Below, one piece after another: positions 10,233 to 63,804 of a DNA stretch of 64,000 nt. The stretch lies in NCBI RefSeq assembly GCF_028641065.1, contig NW_026576641.1, positions 186,001-250,000 of the forward strand, given 5' to 3'. Both the position numbers and the translations under genes were made by a program. Origin of the DNA: Leucoraja erinacea (taxonomy: Eukaryota). Under the pieces are notes generated by a model, which saw only the letters and a list, made by a program, of their open reading frames with translations, did not search any database and had not been told where the DNA came from. Numbering within the stretch: position 1 is the stretch's first letter; each line of letters begins with the position of its first letter.

Positions 10233-10643
10233 ATGGCTGCGAAAGACAGGTTCGAGAGTTGGACCGAGGAGGCAGTTTGTCCCATCTGCCTGGATTTCTT
10301 CACCGATCCGGTGTCACTGGAGTGCGGGCACAACTTCTGCCGCTCCTGTATCACACAGAGTTGGGACAGGGAAGGGAAAAACTCCTGCCCGGAATGTAGA
10401 GAGGAATTTACAGACCGCACCCTCAGGGTGAATCGGGCCTTGGTTAGACTGTCTGAGAAAGCTCGAGCACTGAGCCTGAATCAGACAGAGAAGGAAAATA
10501 AACTTCAGTGCGAGGATCATCAGGAAGAACTGAAGCTGTTTTGTGAAACAGACAAGAAACTGATCTGCCTGATCTGCCGAGACGCGCGGGAACACAAGAC
10601 TCACAACTTCATGCCGATTAATGAAGCTGTTGCAATGTGCAAG
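10233..10643 (+). CDS. TRIM-B exon 1: RING and B-box2
   Basis: [24 protein letters not shown]...CPEC (C3HC4); [12 protein letters not shown]...ICLIC...H..H; donor AAG|GTAAAA. Confidence 0.93.
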
Positions 10644-13600: not shown

Positions 13601-16600
13601 AACTTTCCATTTCTGTTACAGTGCAGGTAGGTAGGAGTGATTGACAGAGAAAAGAAGAAAAGATCTGCCAGTCCTTATTTCCAGTTTCCTTATTGGTTCT
13701 TAATTGAAGCTTCCCTGCCTCAGAGGGCGGTGGAGGCCGGTTCTCTGGATACATTTAAGAGAGAGCTAGACAGGGCTCTTAAAGATAGCGGAGTCAGAGG
13801 ATATGGGGAGAAGGCAGGAACAGGGAACTGATTGTAGATGATCACATTGAGTGACGGTGCTGGCTCGAAGGGCCGAATGGCCTCGTCCTTCCCCTATTGT
13901 CTATGGTCTATACATCACACACAGACCATTGAGTCCTTCTCCTGTCAATTTTTGCTGCACCAGATAAAACCACCTTACACCCATTCACCTCATTGATCGA
14001 CAATGTTCGTTGCTCCATTGATGTTCGAGTGTTTCTCCAAATCCTCCATCACACATAACCTGTGCTTCAACTACATCTGTGGTGGGAGGTTCCACATTCT
14101 CATTGCTGAATTTCTCAAGGAATATGTTGAAGACCAACTTATTTTTCATTAAAATTATAGTCCAACACCCTCAGGAACGAGCAAACCTATTGGCCAAAGG
14201 GAATGCTGAAGTTACGAGCATGCTGGAATCAAGTCAAAGTCAATAGAGTTTATTGTATTGGAGCAGGGAGGTTCTACTGCAGTTGTACAGGGTCTTGGTG
14301 AGACCACACCTGGAGTATTGCGCACAGTTTTGGTCTCCAAATCTGAGGAAAGACATTCTTGCCATAGAGGGAGTGCAGAGACGGTTCACCAGACTGATTC
14401 CTGGGATGTCAGGACTTTCATATGAAGAAAGACTGGATAGACTCGGCTTGTACGCGCTATAATTTAGGAGATTGAGGGGGGATCTTATAGAAACGTACAA
14501 AATTCTTAAGGGGTTGGACAGGCTAGATGCAGGAAGATTGTTCCCGATGTTGGGGAAGTCCAGGACAAGGGGTCACAGTTAAGGATAAAGGGGAAATCCT
14601 TTGGGACTGAGATGAGAAAAACATTTTTTACACAGAGATTGGTGAATCTCTGGAACTCTCTGCCACAGAAGGTAGTTGAGGCCACAGTTCATTGGCTATA
14701 TTTATGAGGGAGTTAGATGTGGTCCTTGTGGCTAAAGGGATCAGGGGGTATGGAGAGAAGGTAGGTACAGGATACTGAGTTGGATGATCAGCAATGATCA
14801 TATTGAATGGCGGTGCAGGCTCGAAGGGCCGAATGGCCTACTCCTGCACCTAATTTCTATGTTTCCCCGCTCCCTCCTGGCCAAATTCATCGCGTCTAAA
14901 ATTACACTCCAATAATCACAGACATCTTATCCGGCTAAAATGCATAACCACAGCCTGGTCTGATGTCTATCCCATCAGAATGGTCTAATTCTAATCATCA
15001 TTTTAATATTTTCTCCCTTTTTGCTCTGTGTGCAATGGATCTGTTTTGCCCTGTGAATCAGAGGGAGTGAGAGGTGTTAAACGGGATTGTTTAACACCTT
15101 GTAATAAATTGGGTAAACTTCCTGTTGTTAGTGTTAATAGTAAGATTAAACGAGAACTTACCAGTTTGAAGGTTGATCTGTATTTTATGAGGAGTTACGA
15201 TGAGGGATTACGTGAAGAACCCCGCTAGGACGCATGCGTGTCATTCTTCAAAGCAGCGGTGTGAAATCACAGATAACTGTAATGACTAAACATAGTAAGA
15301 TTAGAGAAAAGATACCAGTTAAGTATATGATCAGGGTGGGAGCGGAGGGCACGTAATCCCTCATCGTAACTCCTCATAAAATACAGATCAAACTTCAAAC
15401 TGGTAAGTTCTCGTTTAATCTTACTATTTTACTTCGGAGTCATGTGAGTGACTACGTGAAGATTTTAAAGCTCTGTGATTTCATGCCGTGGAAACGAGTC
15501 CATGCATCACGTCTGCCTTGACTGTGGGAGGAGTAGTGTTAACATAATTTGGACATGATTCGTCATTGAAATCATAAAATTTATTAACACAAATTATAAC
15601 CCCTTTTATGGGTTTAATTAATTTACAGAACTTAACATTTTTTCTGCAAATGTTCCAGATTTCATCACTGGTTTATTGTAAAATAACTGCAAAGTTCTTT
15701 CCCCTGACCATCCTGCTGCTTCGAGGACTTGGTCCATGGGCACATCCAGTTGTACTGCTGCCGATGTAGCTGCAGCCCTGGTGGAATGAGATTTTAAAAC
15801 GTTAGTATCCACCCCAGCCTGTGTCAGCAGCTGTTTCAGCCATCTCGAGATGGTCTGGACCATCACTCTTTTGTGAGGTTGCTTATGGCTGATCAGCAGT
15901 CCCTTCGCATTGCCTCTTAGGATTTTTGTTTTCTCTATTAATAATGACAGGTGTCTAACTATACATAGACGGTCATCTGAAGGATATGACCTGAATTGTA
16001 TATTGAGGCCTGCTGATCCCTGTCTGTTCTGCTTTACCAGTTTGTAGATGTGGAACGTAATATCGTCCGGTGAGGAGGTCATGTTGTCCAGTCTGAGTTT
16101 ATGCAGTGAGTGAACCCTCTGTGCCGTGACCAGTGCCATTAACATGACTGTTTTCAAAGTTAGTCTGTGTAGGGACACAGTTGATGCTGGAGACCAGTTC
16201 CTGAGCGTTTTCAGGACAATGCTTACATCCCAAATTTGGGAGTACCTGGTTTTTGGGGGATTATTAAATATTCTCCTCGTGAGCTTTGTTACCAGAGGGT
16301 GAGTCCCTACAGTGTAACGCTCTGTCCCTTGCCATAGGTAAGTCGACAGGGCACTTCTGGCGCTGTTGATGGCACTGTAGCTGAGCCCCTCATCAAAGTG
16401 GAGGCCTGCCAGATATTCCAGAACAGGATGTTGTTCTTATGACAGTACATTTCCCACTTCCTGATGTAGACCAGATATTGTTTATTAGTTGATTGTCTTT
16501 GGGCCGCCAAGATAGAAACATAGAAACATAGAAATTAGGTGCAGGAGTAGGCCATTCGGCCCTTCGAGCCTGCACCGTCATTCAATATGATCATGGCTGA

Positions 16601-19600
16601 TCATCCAACTCAGTATCCCGTACCTGCCTTCTCTCCATACCACCTGATCCCCTTAGCCACAAGGGCCACATCTAACTCCCTCTTAAATATAGCCAATGAA
16701 CTGTGGCCTCAACTACCCTCTGTGGCAGAGAGTTCCAGAGATTCACCACTTTCTGTATGAAAAAAGTTCTTCTCATCTCGGTTTTAAAGGATTTCCCCCT
16801 TATCCTTAGGCTGTGACCCCTTGTCCTGGACTTCCCTAACATCGGGAACAATCTTTCTGCATCTAGCCTGTCCAACCCCTTAAGAATTTTGTAAGTTTCT
16901 ATAAGATCCCCTCTCAATCTCCTAAATTCTAGAGAGTATAAACCAAGTCTATCCAGTCTTTCTTCATAAAACAGTCCTGACATCCCAGAGATCATGTTCG
17001 CTGTTCGGTCCGTTAGTCCCAGTTGTAGAAGTGGTGTTTTTAAACTCTACAAGTTAACAGGTTCAAGCTTTTATGGCATGGATGGCTATCCCCTGTCACG
17101 GATGTAGTAATAAGTCTGGTCTATGTGGGATGGTAATACATGGTTCTAATACCATGTTTTGCACCACTGGAAACCATGGTTGTGTAGGCCAATCAGGTAC
17201 TACCAAAATACCAGACGCAGAGTCTTGTTGTATTTTCCTTAATACCCGACTGATGAGGCAGAAAGGAGGGAATGCATAGATAAACAATTTCCCCCAATGC
17301 AGCGAGAATGCATCTGTTGCTGCTGCCCCAGGATCTGGTTCCCATGAAACATAGTTAGGTATCTGGTTGTTTAGTCTGGATGTGAATAGATCGATATCTG
17401 GTGTACCATATTTTGCTGTAATATCAGCAAATACCATTTTGTTCAACATCCATTCAGTGTTTTCATTAAATTTGCGTGACCTGGTGTCTGCCAGTAAATT
17501 TAGTCTCACTGGTAGGTAAGTGGCTGATATCCAAATATCTTTCTGGATGTACCATTGCCAAATTGAATTAGCAAGATTGTCACATGATATCGATTTGTAA
17601 CCACCCATGTAGTTGATGTATGCTACCACGGTGGTATTGTCTATTTGTAGTCTAACATGCTGGTGATATGACCCAGTACAATATGACTTTAGGCCAAGGA
17701 ATGCACCCAACATTTCCAAGTAGTTTATGCCCAGTGTGAGTAAGAAAGATGCATCTTGTGCTGTCCATCTACCTCCACAGCTGGTGATGGTATTGGTGGC
17801 TCCCCACCCAAGTGCACTGGCATCGGTTTGTAGTACCATAGAAGGGTTACTGACAATGATTGGGTTGGAACAAAGCCAGATGTTGTCTATCCACCATTTT
17901 AGTTCCGTTTTGGCTTAGATTGGTAGTTTCATAGGTCTATCAAAGTGACCTGTATTGATTTTTAGAGCTTGTATTTTTGTTCTCTGTAAGTTTTGGTAAT
18001 GTAGAGGTCCAAATTGTGTGGCTGGGAAAGCAGCCACCATTTTACCAATTACTTTTGCTACCAATCTGATGGATGGTTTGCTGATGTCAATGAGGTTGTT
18101 GCAAGCCTCTATTATATCTCTAGCCTTTCCCTTAGGTAGTGTCACCGTCATGTGAACTGAGTCAATGGTGAATCCCAAAAAAGTCCATTGTAGTGGACGG
18201 TGTTAGTTTAGATTTAACTGGATGGATAATAAATCCCAGTTTTTCAAATAACTGTTTTGTGGCTGTTACAGTTTGTATGGCCAATTCCAAAGTTATGCCC
18301 ACTATGAGTATGTCATCTAAATATGCCATAGCCATGTGATTACGTTTCCGTAGGAACGCTAGGGCTGGTTTTAAGATTTTCGTGAACAGCCTGGGGGCTG
18401 ATGATAGCCCATTTGGCAGTGCTTTATATTGTCAGAGTTGTCCCATCCAGTTGAATTTTAAGTAACATCTGTGGTCACCTTTTATGGGTACTGAATAGTA
18501 AGCATCTTTTAAATCGATGCTGGCCATGTAGTACCCTTTGGAAGTTAATTGTTTAGCAGTAACAAAGGTTTCCATTTTAAAGTGAAGATATTGTACAAAT
18601 GTATTTAATTTTGTCAGATCTATGATGATGCGACAACCACCATCTTTTTTGGTTTTGGTAAAAATATTGGACACGAATTCTAATGGTTCATGTTGGGTTA
18701 TCTCAATTACACCTTTTATGTAAAGCCGCTCCAGTTCAGCTTGTGCCTCTGATTTTTGTTTATCAGAGAGTACGGACACTCGGTTCAGTCTATGTTGAAC
18801 TGGAGGGCTGTATTTGTGTATAAACTCTATTGTATATCCCTGGATACTGTTTAAGATGTAAGTATCGGTTGTTAGCATGCTCCATGCATTCAAAAACCAG
18901 TGTAGTCTCCCCTCAACACCCATGCTGTCCATATTTTTTAGGGAACCAGACCCACCTACCTCCATTGTTACCAGTGGCAGGTTTACTTTTTCTTGTAGTT
19001 CTTCCGCTGTTGTTGTGCTGGTGCCTGGTTTCCCGGGTTGGTTAATGTTGGCGTTGGGGTTCCCCGCTTCTTCCAAGAAGGCCGGCCTGGGCCATGGCCT
19101 AAAAAAGACTCATGTTTGTAAAACCGTGCCTTCGAGCTTTCACCAGTTCTGCTGGTGGGTGCGTAGGGGTGCTGTCTTTGGCTGTAGTGGGTTTTTGTTG
19201 GTGTTCCTTTTATTAATCCCAAGGTTTTGGCTTCCTCATCGAGCTCTTTTACCTGCTTCGATAGGTTGCCACCGAACAAGACAATTGATGGTTTCGTGGC
19301 CCCAGGTTTGCACAGTCCCGCAAATTTTGGGTTCAGTGTGGGTTGTATGGCACTTTTCCTGATGTTATTTATTTCGTGCTGGGTGTTACAGAATAGTGCC
19401 AGCGCATCTTGTTGGTCCTGGGACATATTTCTGTCGTCCACTGTACGGGCAAATGCTGTTATCCCTGCGGTCAGTAATTTTATCACTTTTTGTAATTTCA
19501 CATCCATGCTCCTGACCCCTGTTCCAATGTGTTTCCATATACAGTTGTTGATAATTGGGACGTTTAGGGAAATGCAATTGCCCAGTGCCATATGTCTTCC

Positions 19601-22600
19601 TGTGGTGTCTAGTACAGCCTGCTCTTGTAACTGGTTTAGTGACATGTAGTCAATACTGGCAGCAAGCTTTGGCTCCAGATTTTTCCCAGTCTGTTCCAGC
19701 TGTATAAAATTGGCCACCATGTCCAGCAAGTTCTCTTTTTCTCGCACCCCATGCAGACTCATCTGTTCTTCTGCGGACCCCTCTTCCAGGTCAGCCCAGA
19801 ACTGACCCGCAGTGCTCCCCTCCGGTGAGGTGGAAACACTATGCAGCCCTTGAAAAGGTGCTGCTGTGGGTTTATCATAGGGCCCACAGTGACCCGACTC
19901 CATCTCCCGGAGTCTGTCACGTTGGAGAAAATGCTCCACACACCGCTCCATCCAGCTCCAGCGCTCTCGGTCGCTGGCCGCCCGCGGTGGTTCAAAGTCG
20001 GACTCCTCCGAGTTCACGACCTTGTTGGATTTGTATTTTGCGTTGCCGCCCGGCCGCGTGGATTAGGCCGGTGTGGCGGCATCAGGTACAGCTGATCCCG
20101 CTACGGGTGATCCAAGTGTCGTTGGCTGCTGCCGCTGGCTGCCCGCTACTCCGCGGTCCTCCCTCACCAGCTTTGTCGCAGCCCTTGTCTTCTTTGCTTT
20201 CTCCATTTCCCTGCCTGTAGTTGGGAAAGGAAACAAAAAAGACCGCAGAGTAAACCCTTACCTGCAATTAGCGGCTTTTAAACTGCCGCCGCGGAGGAAC
20301 GTCCTTCCACCGTGTCTGACGTTTCGCAATGCGTGTAGCGATATGACACGCATGCGTCCTGGCGGGGTTCTTCACGTAGTCACTCACGTGACTACGAAGT
20401 AAAATCCTGGCCAAATTGGAGAGGCTAGGACCCTAAAATTGAGTAAAAGCTTCTGGACTGCTAGGCCATTTGGTCAATTTAAATGTGCTTTCTGTAGAAA
20501 TGGGACAAGCTGCAGAATGGTGCCAGTTTGTCTAGAGCCTAGATCCGAGCTGCGGGAAAGGAATGGGAACACCTGCAGACCCTGACAATTAGGTGAAAAT
20601 GCATAGAATGTATTGGTTGAATGTAAACCAGGCATACACATTGTAAATAATGTTGCAAAGCTTTACTTTGCTGGATGATGATTGGATTAAGTATTGTGCC
20701 TTGTCTGGTTTTCTTGCATATCAGAGCACAATAGTCAATAGGTGCAGGAGTAGGCCATTCGGCCCTACGAGCCAGCACTGCCATTCAATGTGATCATGGC
20801 TGATCATCCACAATCAGCACCCCGTTCCTGCCTTCTCCCCATATCCCCTGACTCCGCTATTTTTAAGAGCCTTATCTAGCTCTCTCTTGAAAGTATCCAG
20901 AGAACCGCCCTCTGAGGCAGAGAATTCCACAGACTCACAACTCTCTGTGTGAAAAAGTGTTCCCTTGTCTCCGTTCTAAATGTTGCGATGTTCGTTTCGT
21001 TTGAGAAACACTGTTTGAATACAATGTATTAGCTACTGTATTATTGGGTTGGAAAAATGTCTGTCATGTATGTGGTTAATCGATATATGTAATTGGATTG
21101 TAATTGTTCGGCCCCTCGAGGTCCGGGGACCTATAAAAGTAGCTACCACGAGGTCCTGTGTCGATCTTCTGGGAGAGCGCTTCGGACTGCGTGACCTTCT
21201 GGAGTGTCTCTGTTTGTGCAAGGCCTAGAGAGCTTGAACAGGCAGGATTTGAGTATAGGAGCAGGGAGGTTCTACTGCAGTTGTACAGGGTCTTGGTGAG
21301 ACCACACCTGGAGTATTGCGTACAGTTTTGTTCTCCTAATCTGAGGAAAGACATTCTTGCCATAGAGGGAGTACAGAGAAGGCTCACCAGACTGATTCCT
21401 GTGACTTTCATATGAAGAAAACTGGATAGACTCGGTTTGTACTCGCTAAAATTTAGAAGATTGAGGGGGGATCTTATAGAAACTTACAAACTTCTTAAGG
21501 GGTTGGACAGGCTAGATGCAGGAAGATTGTTCCCGATGTTGGGAAAGTCCAGAACAAGGGGTCACAGTTTAAGGATAAGGGTGAAGTCTTTTAGGACCGA
21601 GATGAGAAATCATTTTTTACACAGAGAGTGGTGAATCTGTGGAATTCTCTGCCACTAAAGGTAGTTGAGGCCACAGTTCATTGGCTATATTTAAGAGGGA
21701 GTTAGATGTGGCCCTTGTGGCTTAAGGGATCAGGGAGTATGGAGAGAAGGCAGGTACAGGATACTGAGTTGGATGATCAGCCACGATCATATTGAATGGC
21801 GGTGCAGGCTCGAAGGGGCGAATGGCCCACTCCTGCACCTATTGTCTATGTTTCTATGCATGGATCGAACCCGCGCTGGTTAGGTATAATAGTGGAACTG
21901 TAATTGTGTTCTGTCAAAATAAAGTCTAGATGCGCTAGTGCTTGAATCAGTGATTTTTGACTGAAACTAGACTGGGGGGGGGAAACTTAGAATGCGCTAT
22001 TTACATGAGGATGTGGATGATCCGTTAATTCCGATTTGTGTTTTATTTATTTCAGGAGGAAGCTGACTGTAAGAGGAGGTAAGACTTGCTATTCACTGAC
22101 CCTCTGCATAGACCGGTAACATATTGCCGAGGAATAACCAATGCCCAGTTTGTAATCAGCTATTTAATATTTGCAGGGTTAGAGATGATGACTGGCCATT
22201 GTCAGTGAGAGATGATTCCATACCGTTTGAGAATTTCAACCATCTCTTTCTGTTGAAGACAGTTTTGAAGGAAACCTTTGACTCCATTAAGCAAGGTAAA
22301 GCATGTAGATTACTTCCTGTTTGTTAGGTAATTCTATTTTGGTTTCGCCCACTGGGTCCGCGCCGACCAGCGATCCCCGCACATTAACACTATCCTACAC
22401 CCACTAGGGACAATTTCATTTTACATTTACCAAGCCAATTAACCTACACACCTGCACGTCTTTGGAGTGTGGGAAGAAACCAAAGATCTCGGAAACAAAC
22501 CGAAGGTAGGCAAAAATGCTGGAGAAACTCAGCGGGTGAGGCAGCATCTATGGAGTGAAGGAAATAGGCGACGTGTTGGGTTGAGGCCCTTCTTCAGTTT

Positions 22601-42900: not shown

Positions 42901-45900
42901 TCCCACTGAGTTTCTCCAGCGTTTTGTGTCTACCTGTAGACAGAGCCATACAGGCCCTTGAGCTTAAGGATGTGCTTCAGGGTGTAAATCCCCACGTAGT
43001 CTATTGAGTGGAGAGTTAATACTGCAGGTGCCCACATGTCTGACAAATAGGTCGATATGGCTCCGATATATGAGTTGGACTCCTATTTACCCGACCGTCT
43101 CCATATGTCCTGGCCAGAGGATTTGCGTTAGTCTCATTAGTTCATGTGCATGAGTTAAAGGAGCAGAGTTGCGCCCTTCGGCCCATCGTGTCCACTCCGC
43201 CATTCATTCATGGCGAGACATATTTCTCTCTGAATCCCATTCTCCCCCTTCTCCCCGTAACATTCGACACGCTTACAAATCAAGAACCTACCCGCTTTGA
43301 AAATACACAAAGTTACAGAAAAAGGTTGAACAAGTTAGGTCTTTATTTTTTGGAGCGCGGAAGGTTAAGGGGGGACTTGATAAAGGTCTGTAAAATGATG
43401 AGAGGGATAGACAGAGGTGACGTGGATAAGCTTTTCCCTTTGAGAGTAGGGAAGATTCAAACAAGAGGACATGACTTGAGAATAAAGGAGCAGAAGTTTA
43501 GGGGTAACATGAGGGGGAACTTCTTTACTCAGAGAGTGGTAGCTGTGCGGAATGAGCTTCCAGTGGAGGTGGTGGAGGCAGGTTCGATTTTATCATTTAA
43601 AAATAAATTGGATAGTTATATGGACGGGAAAGGAATGGAGGGTTATGGTCTGAGTGCAGGTAGATGGGACTAGGGGAGGCCGAGATGGGCCTGGAAGGGC
43701 CGAGATTGCCTGTTTCCGTGCTGTAATTGTTATATGGTTTTATGTTATATGGTTATATGGTTGGGGCAGCATCTATGGAGCGAAGGAATAGGTGACGTTT
43801 CGGTTCTTCAGACTTGCCTGTGCGTGATTATTATTTTCACATCAAAATTAGAGACGGCTGGAAATAAAAGGCTAGGATCGGGTCTCGTTTTACTGTGGAC
43901 GTCTATGGTAAATGCTCTAACATACACCGATAAAAGTTGACTTTGATGGCCAATCCAAGTTAAAATTGCAATTGGAACTGTTCACATTGAGTCGGGAAAA
44001 GGGATGGGGGGTGGGGGTCCATGGGTACCCGACACAACTATATCTGATGAATAGTCTCCCTTATCATCGACTCCATCTACTGTTCACGCTGCCTCGGGAG
44101 AGCAGCTATCTTAATTTCACCATCTTTTTTTTTAACCCCTTTGTTTCTTTTTCTCCGCCTTTCGATCGGCCAAATTGACTATTTTGAGGAAGGACATTCT
44201 TGCTATTGAGTGAGTGCAGCGTAGGTTCACCAGGTTAATTCCCGTGATGGCGGGACTGTCATATGTTGAGAGAATGGAGCGGCTGGGCTTGTACACTCTG
44301 GAGTTTAGAAGGATGAGAGGAGATCTCATTGAAACATATAGGATTGTTAAGGGTTTGGACACGTTAGAGACTGGAAACATGTTCCCGATGTTGGGGGAGT
44401 CCAGAACCAGGGTGCTGTCTGTATGGAGTTTGCACGTTCTCCCCGTGACCTGCGTGGTGTTTCTCCGAGATCTTCGGTTTCCTCCCACACTCTAAAGACG
44501 TACAGGTTTGTAGATTAATTGGCTTGGTTAAAACAAAGTATAATTGTCCAAGTTGGCGATATGCGGAGTACTGCCCTGCCGACTACAACTTTCAGAAGGT
44601 TCAGAAGGATATGGGGAGAAGGCAGGAACGGGGTACTGATTGGGGATGATCAGCCATGATCACATTGAATGGCGGTGCTGGCTCGAAGGGCCGAATGGCC
44701 TACTCCTGCCCCTATTGTCTATTGTCTAAAGCATGAATGCATTTCCCACCAGATTCAGGAACAGACCGTGGGATTATTCTCTGTGGATATGCACCAGCCC
44801 TCGGTCCTACGGGCTTTGGTTTCAAGACCCGGACGACACAAGTCAAAAACTAGGGGATAAGTATTTAAGGTGAGCGGGGAAAGATATAATCGGAAACTGA
44901 GCGACAACTTGTTCACACAGAGGATGGTGGATATATAGAAGGAGCTATCGGGGAGGTAGTTGAGGCATAAGCTATAACAATATTTAAAATACATTTCCAC
45001 AGGTACATGGATATGAACATTTAGAGGGATATGGCCAAATGCGGGCAGGTGGGAGAGTGTAGATAGGGCGTCTTGGTCAACATGGGCGACCTAGGCCGAA
45101 GGGCCTGTTTCCATGCTGTGTGACTTCGTGAATCTGTGATTCAAGCATCCATGTGTAAAGTTCCATGTTCTAACATATTTATGATGTGGACCTTGTTAAA
45201 CCTCTGCGAGGCGAGAATGAGTGGATTTCTCGATACTTTAGTGCTCAGAGAGGAACGACTATCTCACAAGACATTTGCAAGATTCACCGCGCAAGTTAAT
45301 GATACTGGGTCGGATATTTGATGAGACACCACGAATGATTGAAGAACGGGCGACAGGTTTCAGATCGCGCAAAGCAGAAAGTAAATCATGTCCTGAGCGA
45401 ATGAATAGGTGACGTTTCGGGTCGAGACCCCTCTTCGTTCTGACGAAGTGTCTCGACCCGAAACCTCGCCCATTCCTTCGCTCCATAGATGCTGCCTCGC
45501 CCGCTGAGTTTCTCCAGCATTTTTGTCTACCTTCGATTTTTCAGGCATCTGCAGTTCCTTCTTAAACATTTTATCCCTGTTTGCTACGTTGATCTAATGA
45601 TCTATTCTGCATTTTCCTTGCTCTCCATCTCCTTTGATGTCTCGATTTCACACCTTACTCTTCCTTATCTCTCTCCACTGACTCTCAGCCTGGAGAAGCG
45701 CCTCGATCCGAAAAGTCGCCCACTCTTTCTATCCAGAGATGCTGCCTGCCCCGCCGAGTTACTCCAGCGCTCTGTGCCTTTATCCAAGAACGACCCGGAA
45801 TGAAAAAAGCATGCTGCCCCTCACACTCACCTTGTATTTCTCCACAGCTTCGTGGATGAGCATGAAGTCATGCTGCTTGTGGCTGCCGCCCGCTCTCCCG

Positions 45901-46358
45901 TCCAAACACATCACACAGATCAGCTCCCTGTCCGTCTCACAGAAGAGTTTCAGCTCCTCCTTGTGCTCCTTGCAGTACAGTTTGGGCGCCGCTTGTCTCG
46001 GCCGAGCGGGTGGACCCTCTTCGCCCTCCTGCCTGACCGGGGCCAGGTTGAGAGTACGGGCAGTGTCGGCCAGGTGGCCCAGCGCCCGGTTAGCCCTCAC
46101 GCTGTTGTCCCCGATCACAGTCCCGCACTGGGGACACGAGTTGGCCTCGCCGCCCTCGCAGTACACCTGGAGACATGCCTGGCAGAAATTGTGGCCGCAG
46201 TCCAGAATGACCGGCTGGTCGAACAGCTCGATGCAGATAGGACAGTTCAAGTATTCGGCCAAACTCCCCGCCTGTTCCTTGAACGCTGTGTTCAGCCGTA
46301 CCTTGTGTGGTTTGTCCCCCTCTTCACCCTCGTCCTGCCGCCCCGGTGTCGTGTCCAT
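36330..46358 (-). CDS. TRIM-C: TRIM69-like RING/B-box/coiled-coil/B30.2 protein, 532 aa. Exons 46358-45831, 42369-42277, 41623-41390, 40668-40646, 40546-40440, 36943-36330
   Basis: GT-AG introns; exon sizes 528/93/234/23/107/614, total 1599 nt, open frame. The [20 protein letters not shown] linker and N-terminal extension resemble TRIM69/NF7. Confidence 0.88.
36995..37595 (+). mobile_element. CR1 LINE 3' fragment in TRIM-C intron 5
   Basis: RPHLEYC...[10 protein letters not shown]. Confidence 0.82.
39215..39345. repeat. Minisatellite GGTCTATAGCACCTGCCCACT(GCCCACT), about 5 copies
   Basis: Direct tandem repeats visible in the sequence. Confidence 0.85.
40070..40410 (+). mobile_element. LINE 3' fragment
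   Basis: YKMLNG...[16 protein letters not shown]. Confidence 0.6.
40440..40546 (-). CDS. TRIM-C exon 5 (107 nt)
   Basis: TTTAG|C...G|GTAAGC; [24 protein letters not shown]. Confidence 0.85.
40646..40668 (-). CDS. TRIM-C exon 4 (23-nt microexon)
   Basis: TTTTAG|GAAGAAGCGTGCCAGAAGAAGAG|GTAGGC. Confidence 0.82.
40758..40990. mobile_element. PIF/Harbinger-like MITE, CpG-rich
   Basis: TIR GG(A/G)CCTGTCCCACTTGGCCGTCATTTGC at both ends. Confidence 0.75.
41390..41623 (-). CDS. TRIM-C exon 3 (234 nt)
   Basis: CAG|GAA...GAG|GTGCGT; [23 protein letters not shown]. Confidence 0.88.
42277..42369 (-). CDS. TRIM-C exon 2 (93 nt)
   Basis: CAG|GAT...GGG|GTAAGT; [31 protein letters not shown]. Confidence 0.85.
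45831..46358 (-). CDS. TRIM-C exon 1: RING and B-box2
   Basis: [24 protein letters not shown]...CPQC; [15 protein letters not shown]; donor AAG|GTGAGT. Confidence 0.92.
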
Positions 46359-48879
46359 GTTTATCCCCCAACCTGGCCCGGGCAAGTCTCCTTCAGCAGC
46401 CGAATCGCCAATACTCTGGCAGGGTAGAGACCAAATGAACGGGGCATCTTTCTGGGAGATCTTCCCCTCCCAACATGCTCACCATTGGTTGACAAGAAAC
46501 ATTGCCCAATCATAACATTGATTTCGTTGATACATTTTATATCCGCGATTGTGGGCTTCCGGGACAATAGACAATAGACAATTGGTGACGGAGTAGGCCC
46601 TTCGGCCCCACCATTCAATGTGATCATGGAAAAAGTGTTTTCTCATCTCCGTTCTAAATGGCTTACCCCTTATTCTTAAACTGTGTGGCCCCTGGTTCTG
46701 GACTCCCCCAACCTCAGAGGGCGATGGAGGCCGGTTCTCGGAATACTTTCAAGAGAGTGCTAGGTAGGTCTATTATAGATAGCGGGCTGCGGGGAGAAGG
46801 CAGAAAAGGGGTACTGATTGTGGATGGCATAAGATTGGTATGGGATTGGACACACTAAATGCAGGAAACATGTTCCCGATGTTGGGGGAGTCCAGAACCA
46901 GGGGCCACACACAGTTTAAGAATAAGGGGTCAGCCATTTAGAACGGAGACGAGGATACACTTTTTCTCACAGAGAGTTGTGAGTCTGTGGAATTCTCTGC
47001 CTCGGGGGGCGGTGGAGGCCGGTTCTCTGGATACTTTCAAGAGAAAGCTAGATAGGGCTCTTAAAGATAGCGGAGATATGGGGAGAAGGCAGGAACGGGG
47101 TACTGATTGGGGACGATCAGCCATGATCACATTGAATGGCGGTGCTGGCTCGAAGGGCCGAATGGCCTCCTCCTGCACGTATTGTCTATTGTCTATTGTC
47201 TATTGTCTATTGTCACAGAGTCACGGTCATAACGTCATGCGTGACAGACAATAGATAATAGACAATAAACAATAGGTGCAGGAGTAGGACATTCGGCCCT
47301 TCCAGCCAGCACCGCCATTCAATGTGATCATGGCTGATCGTCCCCAATCAGTACCCCGTTCCTGCCTTCTCCCTATATCCCCTGACTCCGCTATATTTAA
47401 TACCCTATCCAGCTCTCTCTTGAAAAGAGAATAACTAAGTCATTCGGCCCATCAAGTCTACTCCGCCGTTCTATAATGGATGATCTATCTCTCATTCCTA
47501 AGCCCATTTTCCTGCGTTTTCCCTTAACCCCTGACACCCGTCCTAATCGAGAATCTATCTATCTCTGCCTTCAAAACATCAATTGACTTGGCAGCCTCCC
47601 GTGACTAAGAATTCACCACCCTCTGACTAACGACATTTCTCCTCATCTCCTGCCAGACGAAACGTCCTTTAACTCTGCAGCTATGACCACTAGTCCTGGA
47701 CTCTCCCACTAGTAGAAACATCCTCTCCACACCTACTCTATCGAATCTATCGAATGAATGAATGAATGAATGAATGAATAGGTTTATTGGCCAAGTACTC
47801 GCATACAAGGAATTTGCCTTGGTGCTCCGCCCGCAAGTGACAACAACGTAGAGTGACAGTTAGGTACCCTGAGCATCCAACCTGAGCATGCACGAACAGT
47901 CTGGGTGAGGGAGGCGATGGGAGTCAAGATTTACAAGATTTACAAGGTTAAATCCCGAGATGGCGGGACTGTCATGTGTTGATAGAATGGAGCGGCTGGG
48001 CTTGTACACTCTGGAGTTTAAAAGGTTGAGAGGGGATCGTATTGAAACATATAAGATTGTTAAGGGTTTGGACACACTTGAGGCAGGAAACATGTTCCTG
48101 ATGTCGGGCGAGTCCAGAACCAGGGGCCACACAGTTTAAGAATAAAGGGGAGGCCATTTAAGACTGAGGTGAGAAAAAAACTTTTTCACCCAGAGAGTTG
48201 TGAATTTGCCACAGAGGGCAGTGGAGGCCAAGTCACTGGATGGATTTAAGAGAAAGTTAGATAGAGCTCTAATGGCTAGTGGAATCAAGGGATATGGGGA
48301 GAAGGCAGGCACGGGTTATTGATTGGGGCCGATCAGCCATGATCGCAATGAATCGAAGGGCCGAATGGCCTCCTGCATCTATTGTCTATTGTCTATTGAG
48401 TCGCTCTCTACGAATTATGAGCGGAGTCAGGTTTATTACTCCGCATGGGGTGAATATGCCATTCTAGCATATGCGGCAAAGTGTCGCTCCTAACACCCCA
48501 AGTGTCCCGGGGTATAAGCAGCGAACATCGCTCTGCAGACTACCCACATTCGAGTGGACGGTAGCTCTGATAGCCATTGTACCGGGATGCCTGTTTCAGC
48601 TTCTGTGTCAGTTCGCGGTCAGCTTGTTATTCAGTCAGCCTTATAAACACGAGCGGCCTTTGGACTTGGATTTTACTTTAAACCGACGGGTTGCAGGATA
48701 CTCGGCTTATCAACTGTGTGCATTTCAACCATGACCCCGGAGCGGGTCAAAGCCAGATGGAAGCTCAAGTGGCCTTGAGGCTGTGTTATGCCAGCGCCCA
48801 GTAGATTCTGTGTTTCACTGCGATTTTTCAATTGCACTGCCTCTTGCCGGCAGTCAGGTTTTGTTTTTACATTTCAGGC

Positions 48880-52436: not shown

Positions 52437-52473
52437 ATGTGGTGCCTCTTGATGCCGTTCCTTGTTTTTCCAG
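52437..52473 (+). CDS. Ig-like gene leader (signal peptide) exon, MWCLLMPFLVFP(G)
   Basis: AAGATGT start context, hydrophobic 12-residue peptide, phase-1 donor CAG|GTATGG; joins the V exon in frame to give MWCLLMPFLVFPGLART-DD. Confidence 0.75.
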
Positions 52474-55400
52474 GTATGGCTCTCGTGGTCGTGAGGCAGA
52501 GCGGCCTTGTGTCTCTCCTCTCTACCGGACAATGCTCTGACCAGCTGCATAGTTCTAGTTGGCGGGACCCCACCTAACGTCTCACCCCCGTCGGATTGAG
52601 ACTGCGCCGGGAGTCGTGAACAGTCTCTGAGAACGTTGTTACGACGCCAATGCGCGGGTTGATACAAGTGGCAGTACAATAGAGAATAGAATAGAATAGA
52701 GAATAGGCAATAGGTGCAGGAGGAGGCCTTTCGGCCCTTCGAGCCAGCACCGCCATTCAATGTGATCATGGCTGATCATCCGTGAGACAGGGCTGAATCC
52801 TAGTTTGGAATCCTAGTAATACATGATTGAATGGCAGAGTAGATTTGATGGGCCGAATAACCTAATTCACGTACGACCTTATGACCTGATGTAAAACAAA
52901 ATATGAGAATCTCTGCTCCTGCTATCTCTGACTCGCTGTGCTTTCCACTAAATGTGTGTCACTCTGCGTTTATCTACAGGCCTCGCTCGGACAGACGACA
53001 CCCTATACATCTCCCCCATCTCCATGACCCGCCGTGAGAATGAAACGGTGACGCTGGACTGCTTCACGTCCAGGAATCTAGATGATCACTTCTTCATCTG
53101 GGGGTCGGCGAAACCCACCGACCAACTCATCTCCTGGATCCTGTACTGGACCCCGGGCTCAGCGGGGTCTCTGTACTCGGTGCCCGGCACGGACAGGTTC
53201 AGCGGGTCCAAGGACTGGGCCAGCAAGCGGTTCTCACTCACCATTAAGGACCTGCAGCGAGAGGACTCGGCCAGGTACTACTGTGGCAGCTCCAACACCT
53301 ACTTCCCCTACAGTACCGACTGGAGCGGATGTGGAGTTACCCTCACCGTCAACTCTGGTAGGTTGAGTCCTCCACCCGAGGTTGCCGCCGCCGTGCAGTT
53401 TCCAGGGAATGTGTGTTGGATAGACCTGGTCATAGAGTGATACAGTGTGGAATCAGTTCCTTCGGCACCAACATGCCCACACCGGCCAACATGTCCCAGC
53501 TAGACTAGTTCCACCTGCCAAGGTTTGGTCCAAATCACAGGTCCTATCCATATACCTGTCTAACTGTTTCTTAAATGTTAGACAATAGACAATAGGTGCA
53601 GGAGTAGAGGCCATTTGGCCCTTCGAGCCAGCACCGCCATTCAATGTGATCATGGCTGATCATCCCCAATCAGTACGCCGTTCCTGCCTTCTCCCTATAT
53701 CCCCTGACTCCGCTATTTTTACGAGACCTATAAGGCTCTCTCTTGAAAGCATCCAGAGAACCGGCCTCCGCCGCCCTCTGAGGCAGAAAATTCCACAGAC
53801 TATCCACTCTCTGTGAGAAAAAGTGTTTCATCGTCTCCGTTCTAAATGGCTTACTCCTTATTCTTAAACTGTGGCCCCTGGTTCTGGACTCCCCCAACAG
53901 CGGGAACATGTTTCCTGCCTCTAGCATGTCCAAGCCCTTAACAATCTTAACAATGTCGGGATAGTCCCTGCCTCAACTCCATCCTCTTGCAACTTGTTCC
54001 ATACACCCACCACCCGTTGTGTGAAAAAGTTATCCCTCATCCTCTTGCGCTCCAAGCAATAGAGTCCCAGCCTACTCAAGCTCTCCCTATAGCTCAGACC
54101 CTCCAGCCCAGGCAACATCCTCGCAAATATTTTCTGTACCCTTTCCAGCTTGACAACATATTTCCTAAAGCATGGCGCCCAGAACTGAATACAATACTCT
54201 AATGGCCTAGTGTGAAGGTGAACGCTGGCCAGCGCGGGCAGGATGGGCCGAGGGACCTGTTTCCACCCTGTATCTCTAAAACAAAAAACACAAACTATAA
54301 CAGCGGATAGACACCAAAAGCTGGAGTAACTCAGTAGCTGGGTCAGACTCTGGATAAAAGGAATAGGTGAGGTTTCGGAACAAGAGTCGAGTCAAAAGAG
54401 TGTTTTATTGTCATGTCCTAGATAGAACAATGAAAATGTTTCCGGTTTTCACGACCTAATTCACGAGCTCTGCCGAGTTTGCCCTTGACATACTCGCAGC
54501 ATGGTCGTCACGAGGTCGTAGGAGGTCGTGGGTAGGTCGTGATGCTGGTCGTGGGTACTCGTGGCGTCAAGTAACCTGAAGAAAAATATCCACGAGTAAA
54601 AAAGGTCGTGATTTAGGTCGTGAAAGTGGGGCAGGCCCTTAACAGACTCACGACCAAAAACGTCACCGATTCCTTCTCTCCAGAGATGCTGTCTGAGTTA
54701 CTCCAGCCTTTTGTGTCTATCTTCGGGAAATACACCAATCGTCTACTTCGGTCTTCTTTGGGACATGATCCTGAACATTCTTCAAGACAAGTCAACTTTA
54801 TTTGTGACATACGCATACAAGATGTGCAGTGAAATGAAAGTGGCAATGGTGCAGATTGTGCAAAGGCTACAGGACAACAGAACAGAATCAGTATTTACAT
54901 TTAACAAAAAGGCACAACAGTATTTACACACTGGAAGGATCAGCAGAGAGACTCTGAATGTCCTCAGCTGCCTGAGGTGGTAAAGGCGTTGCCTTGCCTT
55001 ACTCACCAGTGCGGCAGCGTGGACAAATTCTGGAACAGCTGCGGCATATTTATCTAGGTCAGCCGCAGTCTATCTTTGGTTCAAGCGAGGGTCTGCAGTT
55101 CCTTCCAACACAACTATAACTTGGTACTTTCATTCCAGCCCCACCCCAGTCGCCTCCGCTGGTTCACTTCCACCACCCAAGCCCCGAGGACGTTCTTCAG
55201 CAGCGGGAGATTGCCTTGCTGTGCGTGGCCGAGGACTTTTACCCCGAGGCCATCTCCATTACCTGGTCGGTGGACGGGCAGGTGGTGAGCGCGGGTGTCT
55301 CTCATTCAGAGTCCCTGTTGGGGCCGAACTCCACCTACACCAAGATCAGCAAGTTGTCCACCGGCACATCTCACTGGATCAAGGGCTCCGTCTACAGTTG

Positions 55401-58400
55401 CCACGTGGCCCATGAGACTCTCGACTCGCCCATCTCCAAACACGTCAGCAATGCCGGTAAGCTCATGTTCATAACGCCTAGGAGCAGAATTAGGCCATTC
55501 GGCCCATCAAGTCCGCTCCGCCATTCAATCATGGCTTATCGATCTCTCCCTCTCAACCCCCATTCTCCTTCCTTCTCCCCACAACCCCCTGAACCCGCAC
55601 TATTCAAGAATTTATCCATCTCAATAGACAATGGACAATAGGTGCAGGAGTAGGCCATTCGGCCCATCGAGCCAGCACCGCCATTCAATGTGATCATGGC
55701 TGATCATCCCCAATCAGTACCCCGTTCCTGCCTTCTCCCCATATCCCCTGACTGCACTACCTTTAAGAGCCCTATATAGCTCTCTCTCTTGAAAGTATCC
55801 AGAGAACCGGCCTCCACCGCCCTCTGAGGCAGGGAATTCCACAGACTCACAACTCTGTGCCTTATAAATATCCATTGAAGGCCTCCACAGCTGTGGCAAT
55901 GAATTCCACAGGTTCACCGCCCTCTGACTAGAGAAATTCCTCCTCATCTCCTCACCAATGGTATGCCCTTTTATTCTGAGGCTGTGGTCCCCGATCCTAG
56001 ACTCTCCCACTAGTGGAAACATCGTCTCCACATCCATTCTATCCAGGCCGTTCGCGATGCGGTAAGTTTCTATGTCTTCTCTCATCCTTCTGGACTCCAG
56101 AGAGTAGAGACCCATCGGCCCATCGGCCCATCGGCCCATCGGCACACTTGCGCCGACCAACATATCCTCAGCCACACTCGTCCCACCTGCCCGCTCTTGG
56201 CCCATAGCCCGCTAAGCCTATCCTGTCCATAGAAACATTGAAACATAGAAAATAGGTGCAGGAGGAGGCCATTCGGCCCTTCGAGCCAGCACCGCCATTC
56301 ATTATGATCATAGCTCATCATCCCCAATCGATAACCCGTGCCTGCCTTCTCCCTATATCCCTTGACTCCACTAGCCCCTAGAGCTCTATCCAACTCTCTC
56401 TTGAATCCATCCAGTGACTTGTCCTCCACTGCTCTCTGTGGCAGGGAATTCCACAAATTCACAACTCTCTGGGTGAAAACGTTTTTTTTCTCACCTCAGT
56501 CTTAAATGGTCTCCCCTTTATTCTAAGACTGTGGCCCCTGGTTCTGGACTCGCCCAACATTGCACTGCCTCAATCACAAGGATGTCCGTCCTCAAATTAG
56601 GAGACCAGAACTGTTCTCCAGATGTGGTCTCACCAGAGCCCTATACAACTGCAGAAGAACCTCTTTACTCCATGTACCAGTAAATGCTTCTCAAACGCTA
56701 CCTACAGCACCCTCTATGTAATCCAATATGGTTGTGTTTCTACAGGGCAGTACCCTAAGGTGCCCGCGGTCTACGTGTTGCCAGCGGGCCGCGGGGAAAT
56801 GGATGTAAAGGAGACCACTATCTCTTGCCTGGCGGCCGGGTATTACCCCGGTGAAATCTCCTTCCGCTGGTCTGTCAACGGAGATCCGGTGGTGAATGGA
56901 GCCAAAAGTTTCGAGCCCATTCGGAACGACAACGGCACCTACAGCGCCCGGAGCGACTTGGTGACATCCACGGACATGTGGAACCTGGGATCCGTCTACA
57001 CCTGCAAGGTCCAACATGTCTCGGTGCCAGACGGGCTGGTCAGAAGCGTTAATAAGACACGGGGTAGGAAGCCTCGTCGTTTCTCCCGTCCCGCGCATTC
57101 CCGTTGTTCGCGCCGTGAAAATATGNNNNNNNNNNNNNNNNNNNNNNNNNNNNNNNNNNNNNNNNNNNNNNNNNNNNNNNNNNNNNNNNNNNNNNNNNNN
57201 NNNNNNNNNNNNNNNNNNNNNNNNNNNNNNNNNNNNNNNNNNNNNNNNNNNNNNNNNNNNNNNNNNNNNNNNNNNNNNNNNNNNNNNNNNNNNNNNNNNN
57301 NNNNNNNNNNNNNNNNNNNNNNNNNNNNNNNNNNNNNNNNNNNNNNNNNNNNNNNNNNNNNNNNNNNNNNNNNNNNNNNNNNNNNNNNNNNNNNNNNNNN
57401 NNNNNNNNNNNNNNNNNNNNNNNNNNNNNNNNNNNNNNNNNNNNNNNNNNNNNNNNNNNNNNNNNNNNNNNNNNNNNNNNNNNNNNNNNNNNNNNNNNNN
57501 NNNNNNNNNNNNNNNNNNNNNNNNNNNNNNNNNNNNNNNNNNNNNNNNNNNNNNNNNNNNNNNNNNNNNNNNNNNNNNNNNNNNNNNNNNNNNNNNNNNN
57601 NNNNNNNNNNNNNNNNNNNNNNNNNNNNNNNNNNNNNNNNNNNNNNNNNNNNNNNNNNNNNNNNNNNNNNNNNNNNNNNNNNNNNNNNNNNNNNNNNNNN
57701 NNNNNNNNNNNNNNNNNNNNNNNNNNNNNNNNNNNNNNNNNNNNNNNNNNNNNNNNNNNNNNNNNNNNNNNNNNNNNNNNNNNNNNNNNNNNNNNNNNNN
57801 NNNNNNNNNNNNNNNNNNNNNNNNNNNNNNNNNNNNNNNNNNNNNNNNNNNNNNNNNNNNNNNNNNNNNNNNNNNNNNNNNNNNNNNNNNNNNNNNNNNN
57901 NNNNNNNNNNNNNNNNNNNNNNNNNNNNNNNNNNNNNNNNNNNNNNNNNNNNNNNNNNNNNNNNNNNNNNNNNNNNNNNNNNNNNNNNNNNNNNNNNNNN
58001 NNNNNNNNNNNNNNNNTCCCAAACAATAACATCCTTACTTGCAACAGCTGTAAGCATCGTGGCAAATACAACATGTTCAGTACATATACATCTGTAAACA
58101 CACCTATACATATCATTATTTTGCACTGTTATCATCTCATCCTTCTAAACTCCAGAGGGTACAAGCCCAGCCGCTCCATTCTCTCAGCATATGACAGTCC
58201 CGCCATCCCGGGAATTAACCTGGTAAACCTCAATAGCAAGAACTCCCTCAATAGCAAGAATGTCCTTCCTCACATCAGGGGACCAAAACTACACATGATA
58301 AAACACTCTTCGTGTCTCTAACCTCCAATGGTTTGATGTGCTTTATTTCCTGTCTCCTGCCAGTCCTGGTCTTCCGCCAGCCGACCATCACCCCAATCAG

Positions 58401-58686
58401 ACTTCCGTCTGACAACTCGGTGCAAGCGCAGACGGTGACCCTCGCTTGCTACATATCAGGATTCTACCCGCCCGACATCTACGTGACGTGGAAAACCGAG
58501 AGGGGGGTGCAGGAGCTGGGCTGGGTGACCAACTTCCCGGTGGTGGCGGACGCCAGCGGGTCCTACAGTACCGCCAGCCAGATGACCATCCCCTTGTCCG
58601 ATGTGGACCGCTCGCTCACCTACGTCTGCATGGTGGCCCACGACTCCATCTCCTTTCCCATCGAGGAGTGGTTTCAGATCAGGTAA
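52437..58686 (+). CDS. UrIg: Non-rearranging secreted immunoglobulin-like gene, leader-VJ-C1-C1-C1, about 457 aa; UrIg-like. Exons 52437-52473, 52980-53357, 55139-55456, 56746-57063, 58364-58686
   Basis: Five exons with canonical GT-AG sites, all joined by phase-1 introns as in Ig/TCR genes; total 1374 nt, open frame, ends in TAA. The V exon includes the G strand (J-like SGCGVTLTV). No TM exon is visible. The symbol is assigned from architecture only, not by alignment. Confidence 0.8.
52980..53357 (+). CDS. V-set Ig domain exon with germline-contiguous J-like segment (VJ exon)
   Basis: Acceptor TCTACAG|G and donor G|GTAGGT. Motifs VTLDC, FIW, DRFSGSKD, FSLTIKDLQREDSARYYC, then a CDR3-like GSSNTYFPYSTDW and SGCGVTLTVNS in one uninterrupted exon. 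Confidence 0.92.
55139..55456 (+). CDS. Ig C1-set domain exon 1
   Basis: Acceptor TTCCAG|CC and donor G|GTAAGC; motifs PSPEDV, LLCVAEDFYPEAISITW, NSTYTKISKL, W..GSVYSCHVAHETL. Confidence 0.92.
56746..57063 (+). CDS. Ig C1-set domain exon 2
   Basis: Acceptor TCTACAG|GG and donor G|GTAGGA; motifs PAVYVLP, ISCLAAGYYPGEISFRW, NGTYSARSDL, WNLGSVYTCKVQH. Confidence 0.92.
57126..58016. other. Assembly gap inside the Ig-like gene (between C1 exons 2 and 3)
   Basis: Run of N. Confidence 0.99.
58364..58686 (+). CDS. Ig C1-set domain exon 3 (last coding domain)
   Basis: Acceptor CTGCCAG|TC; motifs TLACYISGFYPPDIYVTW, GSYSTASQMTI, YVCMVAHDS; in-frame TAA overlaps a donor-like AG|GTAAAG. Confidence 0.9.
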
Positions 58687-63667: not shown

Positions 63668-63804
63668 CTGAATGTCGCCCGGTCAGAGATTCATGTTGCC
63701 CGGAATTCGCGCCGACCTGCACCTGTGCAACCGGAGTAACATTAGTGTGTGCAATTGGAAGTACCAAGGTGGCATTTCGCCACTCCTGATCTACAAACAA
63801 TAAA
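63668..63804 (+). other. Candidate terminal (stop plus 3' UTR) exon of the Ig-like gene
   Basis: Pyrimidine-rich acceptor CTCTCTTATATTTCAG|C TGA. Splicing from the phase-2 donor after 58682 gives ...FQIS*. AATAAA at 63799-63804 is followed by T-rich sequence, in non-repetitive DNA. Confidence 0.45.

What the first reader, a model, noticed from the sequence alone, without database searches (positions are those of the whole stretch)
53270..53357. Unpaired cysteine in the J-like di-glycine bulge (WSGCGVTLTV): candidate V-V dimer disulfide
Seen: the usual (F/W)GxG motif reads SGCG. This is the only Cys in the visible mature protein outside the four canonical intradomain pairs; there is no hinge Cys and no light-chain-linking Cys in C1-1. 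The C-strand motif is also atypical (WGSAKP instead of WYRQ). Established: the GxG bulge lies at the V-V interface, and UrIg is reported as a disulfide-linked homodimer. Inference: a light-chain-independent homodimer linked through its V domains.
Basis: partly seen in the sequence, partly recalled or inferred. Interest (0 to 1): 0.7.

Follow-up and report, generated by a model that had tools for sequence, protein, structure and literature searches.

The report
Cysteine staple of shark-ray antibody UrIg
The extra cysteine is real and sits in the non-rearranging shark-and-ray antibody-like protein UrIg at the same position that staples two tips together in the solved structure of its sister protein UrIg2, so it likely links two UrIg chains into a dimer; this is a known family feature, not a new one.

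Summary
The window encodes an orthologue of UrIg (tsIgH): leader, one-exon VJ, three C1 exons. TGT at 53330-53332 gives the only mature-chain Cys outside four canonical pairs. The N stretch between C2 and C3 is a purine simple repeat, and spliced contigs join the four Ig exons directly, so there is no hinge exon. The Cys is invariant in 13 of 13 aligned UrIg-family V domains. It aligns with UrIg2 Cys114, which forms a 114-114 inter-chain disulfide in crystal structure 9DMX. Kondo 2023 already noted the single extra Cys, and UrIg is described as a disulfide-linked homodimer. A V-V disulfide is therefore very likely (about 0.83), though not shown for UrIg in what I could read. One correction: the pairing is probably not antibody-Fv-like. 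In an Fv this position faces residue 44 of the other domain. UrIg2 pairs through its A and G strands and has no G-strand bulge. Complex prediction gave no verdict. Already known; low interest. In passing: a third, membrane-anchored UrIg-like group in sharks carries the same Cys.

The parts
52437..52473 (+). Leader exon (split leader, 12 codons + 1 base); its Cys3 lies in the predicted signal peptide
   Evidence: matches the start of P0001 and the loose ends in front of the V exon in X7 and X19 contigs
52980..53357 (+). Single-exon VJ domain of UrIg (Pfam V-set), no D/J split
   Evidence: 74-80% identity to UrIg orthologues; best structural match 9DMX UrIg2
53099..53116 (+). Atypical C-strand motif WGSAKP (no Tyr/Gln of the Fv interface)
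   Evidence: 5 of 5 UrIg; UrIg2 and the third group mostly have WGYVPP
53060..53062 (+). Canonical B-strand Cys
53282..53284 (+). Canonical F-strand Cys
53330..53332 (+). Extra G-strand Cys (TGT), x of GxG; equivalent of UrIg2 Cys114 and of VH105/VL100
55139..55456 (+). C1 exon (C1-set), two canonical Cys only; no light-chain Cys and no equivalent of nurse shark UrIg2 Cys182
56746..57063 (+). C2 exon (C1-set), two canonical Cys
57064..58363 (+). Intron C2-C3; its N stretch is a purine simple repeat in G000, no hinge exon
58364..58682 (+). C3 exon (C1-set), two canonical Cys
63668..63671 (+). Likely start of the terminal exon: completes a Ser codon, then TGA; no Cys, no membrane anchor (inferred)
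   Evidence: best of 4 candidates, the only one with polyA-like hexamers behind it; P0001 ends FQIS; junction not seen directly

Best explanation
The TGT at 53330 encodes the one spare cysteine of this animal's UrIg, a non-rearranging V-C1-C1-C1 protein with no membrane anchor, and it likely bonds to the same cysteine of a second UrIg chain, stapling two V domains G strand to G strand as in UrIg2 rather than face to face as in an antibody Fv. Shown: gene anatomy, the Cys count, no hinge exon, conservation, and alignment to UrIg2 Cys114. [quoted passage not shown] Inferred: that UrIg uses the same geometry with one bond instead of the three of nurse shark UrIg2; that the C domains add non-covalent, Fab- and Fc-like contacts; that the protein needs no light chain.
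For: Only spare Cys in the mature chain. No hinge exon. Invariant in 13 of 13 family rows covering UrIg, UrIg2 and a third group. DWSGCG aligns with UrIg2 DFCSCG; the second Cys is chain position 119 = paper residue 114, which forms A114-B114 and packs in line with Trp36 and the canonical disulfides across the dimer (fig. S4 legend). The AlphaFold2 model of the window's V (pLDDT 88) ranks both 9DMX chains first among PDB chains, rmsd 1.6-1.7 A against 2.1 A or more for the other listed chains. Fv-interface residues are replaced: Ser at the J-Trp/Phe position, Gly and Ala in the C strand (role of these positions recalled). UrIg homodimers are reported recombinantly and in vivo (PMC12227049).
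Against: No structure or mutant of UrIg itself was seen; the 2023 J Immunol paper is not held. UrIg and UrIg2 V domains are only 26-38% identical. UrIg lacks the Cys112 and Cys182 equivalents, and keeps both glycines (GCG) where the crystallised UrIg2 has SCG, so the bulge and the interface may differ. The alignment used for the model held UrIg2 rows, which may pull it towards 9DMX. The margin over ordinary VH domains is small (E 3e-10 against 7e-10).
Confidence: 0.83

Rival explanations
1. The V domains pair face to face like VH-VL, and the Cys in a retained di-glycine bulge forms the bond within that geometry.
For: UrIg keeps both glycines of GxG. PMC12227049 cites an AlphaFold model of UrIg that resembles IgG.
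Against: In an Fv this position is bridged to residue 44 of the opposite domain, and UrIg has no Cys there. J-Trp/Phe and the C-strand Gln are absent. The only solved family member is not Fv-like.
Confidence: 0.05
2. In the animal the Cys is mainly a reactive thiol that is free, capped, or bonded to matrix or serum proteins, and the covalent dimer is a minor or recombinant form.
For: UrIg is reported in the extracellular matrix. One spare Cys with no flanking second bond is less locked than in UrIg2.
Against: Homodimers are reported both recombinantly and in vivo. The position is invariant across paralogues whose solved member uses it for a self-bond.
Confidence: 0.07
3. UrIg forms mixed disulfide dimers with a membrane-anchored paralogue (UrIg2 or the third group) through the shared G-strand Cys, which would tether the secreted chain to cells.
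For: All three groups keep the Cys. UrIg and UrIg2 are both expressed in liver. The paralogues carry hydrophobic anchors.
Against: Only homodimers are reported. No UrIg2 or third-group V exon was found in this genome with four queries, though the search is a lower bound and the assembly may be incomplete. C-domain interfaces have diverged (33-40% overall identity).
Confidence: 0.05

Closest known systems
UrIg / tsIgH of elasmobranchs (Flajnik 2023 as cited in PMC12227049; Kondo 2023, PMC10331284)
   Same: One-exon VJ plus three C1 exons, split leader, no membrane anchor, one extra Cys; 60-65% overall and 74-80% V identity to shark and stingray orthologues. Nurse shark UrIg has the same DWSGCG motif.
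   Different: Only species-level substitutions. Kondo placed the Cys in a 'linker/hinge' between V and C1; it lies in the G strand inside the V exon, eight codons before the exon's end.
UrIg2 (PMC12227049; PDB 9DMX)
   Same: Same VJ type, related C-strand motif, Cys at the same G-strand position, where it forms an inter-chain bond.
   Different: UrIg2 has a second G-strand Cys (112), a C1 Cys (182) in nurse shark, more C domains and a membrane anchor; V identity to the window's protein is only 28-36%.
Engineered disulfide-stabilised Fv (VH44-VL100)
   Same: A Cys at the x of the J-motif GxG is tolerated and can form an inter-domain bond.
   Different: There the partner is residue 44 of a different chain in Fv geometry; here the likely partner is the same residue of an identical chain.
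IgNAR and camelid heavy-chain antibodies (recalled)
   Same: Homodimers without light chains.
   Different: They rearrange, their V domains are unpaired, and the inter-chain bonds lie in constant or hinge regions (recalled, not tested).

Membership tests
UrIg | [quoted passage not shown] | tested here: met
   no exact RSS heptamer in the exon
UrIg | Three C1-set domains, one exon each, no hinge exon | tested here: met
UrIg | Secreted form only, no membrane anchor | tested here: met
   P0001 ends after C3; no 19-residue window above hydropathy 2.0 in the three + frames of 9.9 kb from C3 onward; a more distant anchor exon is not excluded
UrIg | V domain about 80% identical among elasmobranchs and grouping with UrIg, not UrIg2 | tested here: met
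   74-80% to four orthologues; UrIg branch support 91/89
UrIg | One extra Cys beyond the four canonical pairs | tested here: met
UrIg | Location in the MHC class III region | not tested
   Neighbours seen in the window are TRIM/B30.2-like exons and repeats; no linkage search was made
UrIg | Liver expression and disulfide-linked homodimer | not testable with these tools
   Spliced contigs exist in related organisms but tissue and oligomer state cannot be read from them
UrIg2 | Two G-strand Cys (CxC) and a membrane anchor | tested here: not met
   Window has S-G-C; no anchor
Rearranging IgH (IgM, IgW, IgNAR) | Split V-(D)-J with RSS; light-chain Cys in CH1 or inter-chain Cys in constant regions | tested here: not met
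   Single-copy fused VJ exon in G000, no spare Cys in C exons

The most novel reading that the evidence does not exclude
The G-strand Cys is a family-wide coupling site shared by three paralogues (secreted UrIg, membrane UrIg2 and an apparently undescribed third membrane-anchored group), so secreted UrIg could be stapled covalently to a membrane paralogue: a heterodimer of non-rearranging VJ chains that foreshadows heavy-light or TCR pairing.
Probability: 0.07. Interest if true: 0.7.

Novelty: already known. Interest (0 to 1): 0.2.

Why it matters
It names the one residue that almost certainly makes UrIg a covalent dimer and predicts a UrIg2-like, non-Fv V-V geometry. That gives a single-mutant test of how the proposed precursor of antibodies and T-cell receptors paired before light chains existed. 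The Cys is in print for UrIg and the bond is solved for UrIg2, so the gain is a clarification, not a discovery.

Tried and rejected
Complex prediction of two V copies gave no verdict (scores 0.03 and 0.02, mark 0.32, alignment not used); not used as evidence either way. The primary UrIg paper could not be read by DOI, PMC id or PubMed id; it or its supplement may already assign the bond to this Cys. A search for V-length orthologues found none (3 candidates). A hinge exon in the N stretch was rejected. No RNA holder was on record for the stretch, and the raw RNA run X24 (about 5 in 100 read) showed no reads at the listed exon positions; no conclusion drawn. DNA-level check of the codon: unchanged in X7 (all 3 differences of the covering contig listed); no change listed in X8 and X11, where 2 and 5 differences near the ends are unlisted; inconclusive in X19 (6 of 26 unlisted, codon near the end). 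The motif survey (Cys in 14 of 153 matches, all family members) used a loose pattern and missed P0028, so it is only indicative. From 13 hits picked, P0005 was dropped as a multi-V protein and P0011 and P0097 were dropped without being printed. The bulge could not be judged: the model gives one continuous strand 112-121, which does not exclude a bulge. UrIg2 or third-group V exons were not found in G000. Literature searches 'UrIg3', 'UrIg'+'shark', 'tsIgH' and searches gave no paper on a third paralogue.

Full report
Observation. The finding covers the end of a + strand exon, 52980-53357, bounded by AG and GT. It encodes a V-set domain that ends DWSGCGVTLTVNS. Cys codons lie at 53060, 53282 and 53330. 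HMMER alignments to antibody heavy chains put Ser on the J-Trp and Cys on the x of WGxG. Three C1-set exons follow, each with two Cys. The leader exon at 52437-52473 has a Cys at residue 3, in the predicted signal peptide. All four junctions from leader to C3 are GT-AG and in frame.

The N stretch. In the window's own genome that stretch is 891 nt of G/A simple repeat (859 purines) with no polypyrimidine-AG acceptor. Contigs of two runs from two other organism labels cover V, C1, C2 and C3 in consecutive record positions (X6: 170-549, 550-867, 868-1185, 1186-1501; X19 likewise with 0-2 letters between). P0001, a 457-residue protein whose V is identical to the window's, has no hinge and ends after C3.

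Identity. The V exon has one strong match in its genome, itself; the next is at E 2.5e-7. Protein searches return orthologues from a stingray, houndshark and whale shark, and a bamboo shark member. V identity is 80% to the stingray and 74% to the sharks, so the animal is probably a batoid (inference). The houndshark protein is named immunoglobulin heavy chain-like protein, the gene Kondo et al. describe as tsIgH; PMC12227049 cites that paper together with the UrIg paper for the same gene. The nurse shark UrIg sequence in its fig. S2 carries the same WGSAKP and DWSGCG motifs.

What is in print. Kondo 2023 (PMC10331284; abstract and Results section read) states that the protein has only one extra cysteine besides the domain pairs and places it in a V-C1 linker. 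Flajnik 2025 (PMC12227049; passages, sections 7, 9, 14, part 1 of the PDF supplement and UrIg rows of table S1 read) calls UrIg a disulfide-linked homodimer. It reports the UrIg2 crystal structure with V-V bonds at 112-112 and 114-114 and a C1-C1 bond at 182-182. The V domains meet through A and G strands, unlike an Fv, and the G strand has no bulge. The 2023 UrIg paper itself was not held, so I saw nothing of it beyond citations. PMC10751288 (passages) places UrIg in the MHC class III region. PMC8243740 (passages) documents the VH44-VL100 bond.

Equivalence of the Cys. In chain 9DMX_A the motif DFCSCG has Cys at chain positions 117 and 119. The construct begins with five leader residues, so these are 112 and 114. 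The window's Cys aligns with the second. It is invariant in 13 of 13 rows: 4 UrIg, 5 UrIg2 and 4 of a third group. The Cys112 equivalent is Ser in all 5 UrIg and Cys in all 11 others (those 16 were cut out by a pattern that holds the Cys, so that count is not an independent test). Controls are small but clean: 0 of 9 non-family V domains covering the column and 0 of 4 other VJ exons of this genome. An AlphaFold2 model of the V domain (pLDDT 88) ranks 9DMX first in the PDB (rmsd 1.6-1.7 A), by a small margin and with UrIg2 rows in the alignment.

Mechanism. A disulfide-linked homodimer with one spare Cys per chain leaves one symmetric option: Cys to the same Cys. The paralogue shows that bond at that position. 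I put this at 0.83. The geometry is probably UrIg2-like. In an Fv the x of GxG is bridged to residue 44 of the opposite domain, and UrIg has no Cys there. It has also lost the J-Trp/Phe and the C-strand Gln that pack VH on VL (their role is recalled). Open points: UrIg keeps both glycines, where the crystallised UrIg2 has Ser for the first, so a bulge may persist; and UrIg would have one bond where nurse shark UrIg2 has three.

Rivals. Fv-like pairing (0.05), a thiol used mainly for other partners (0.07) and mixed dimers with a membrane paralogue (0.05) are set out above. None has direct support. No paralogue V exon was found in this genome, but those searches are lower bounds.

Third group. 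The wide search returned four shark proteins, P0028, P0033, P0038 and P0071, with a WC-x-C G strand. They are 32-46% identical in V to both UrIg and UrIg2. Whale shark has all three types (P0004, P0018, P0038). P0028 is V-C1-C1-C1 with a membrane anchor and 40% identical to P0001 over 418 columns. All 16 family rows form one branch (98/98); the four form one side of a branch only weakly (60/75). I found no paper on them, and an earlier unreviewed note of this scan reports a third such gene in another genome; I did not check that it is the same gene. This lies outside the window.

Verdict. Real, conserved and very likely the dimer-forming cysteine, but already known at family level. Interest 0.2.

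Noticed in passing
Proteins P0028, P0033, P0038, P0071 (not in the window): A third group of shark UrIg-like VJ proteins with two G-strand Cys; P0028 and P0033 have membrane anchors; whale shark holds all three types. Not found in print by my searches and not found in G000. P0028 differs from the other three (37-45% in V) and may be a fourth type.
   Followed up: partly
P0002 (stingray gene model); window 10155-10688, 45783-46478 and nearby: The stingray model fuses a TRIM RING/B-box protein to UrIg, probably an annotation error. The window also has TRIM-like RING and B30.2 exons upstream of UrIg, which suggests a conserved neighbourhood.
   Followed up: no
G000 whole genome: No UrIg2 V exon was found with catshark UrIg2 queries, although other batoids have UrIg2; an assembly gap, divergence or loss.
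   Followed up: partly
window 56931-56939 and other NxS/T sites: N-glycosylation sequons: NET in V, NST in C1, NGT and NKT in C2, none in C3. The C2 NGT may be the interior Fc-like glycan that PMC12227049 mentions for UrIg.
   Followed up: no
L002, L007, L008: Other germline-joined VJ exons in this genome, one VH-like (L002) and two within 3.3 kb in L008; all have ordinary GxG motifs without Cys.
   Followed up: no
window 15621-20062 (- strand): Open frames resembling a DIRS-type retroelement (reverse transcriptase, RNase H, tyrosine recombinase), named from recall of the motifs.
   Followed up: no
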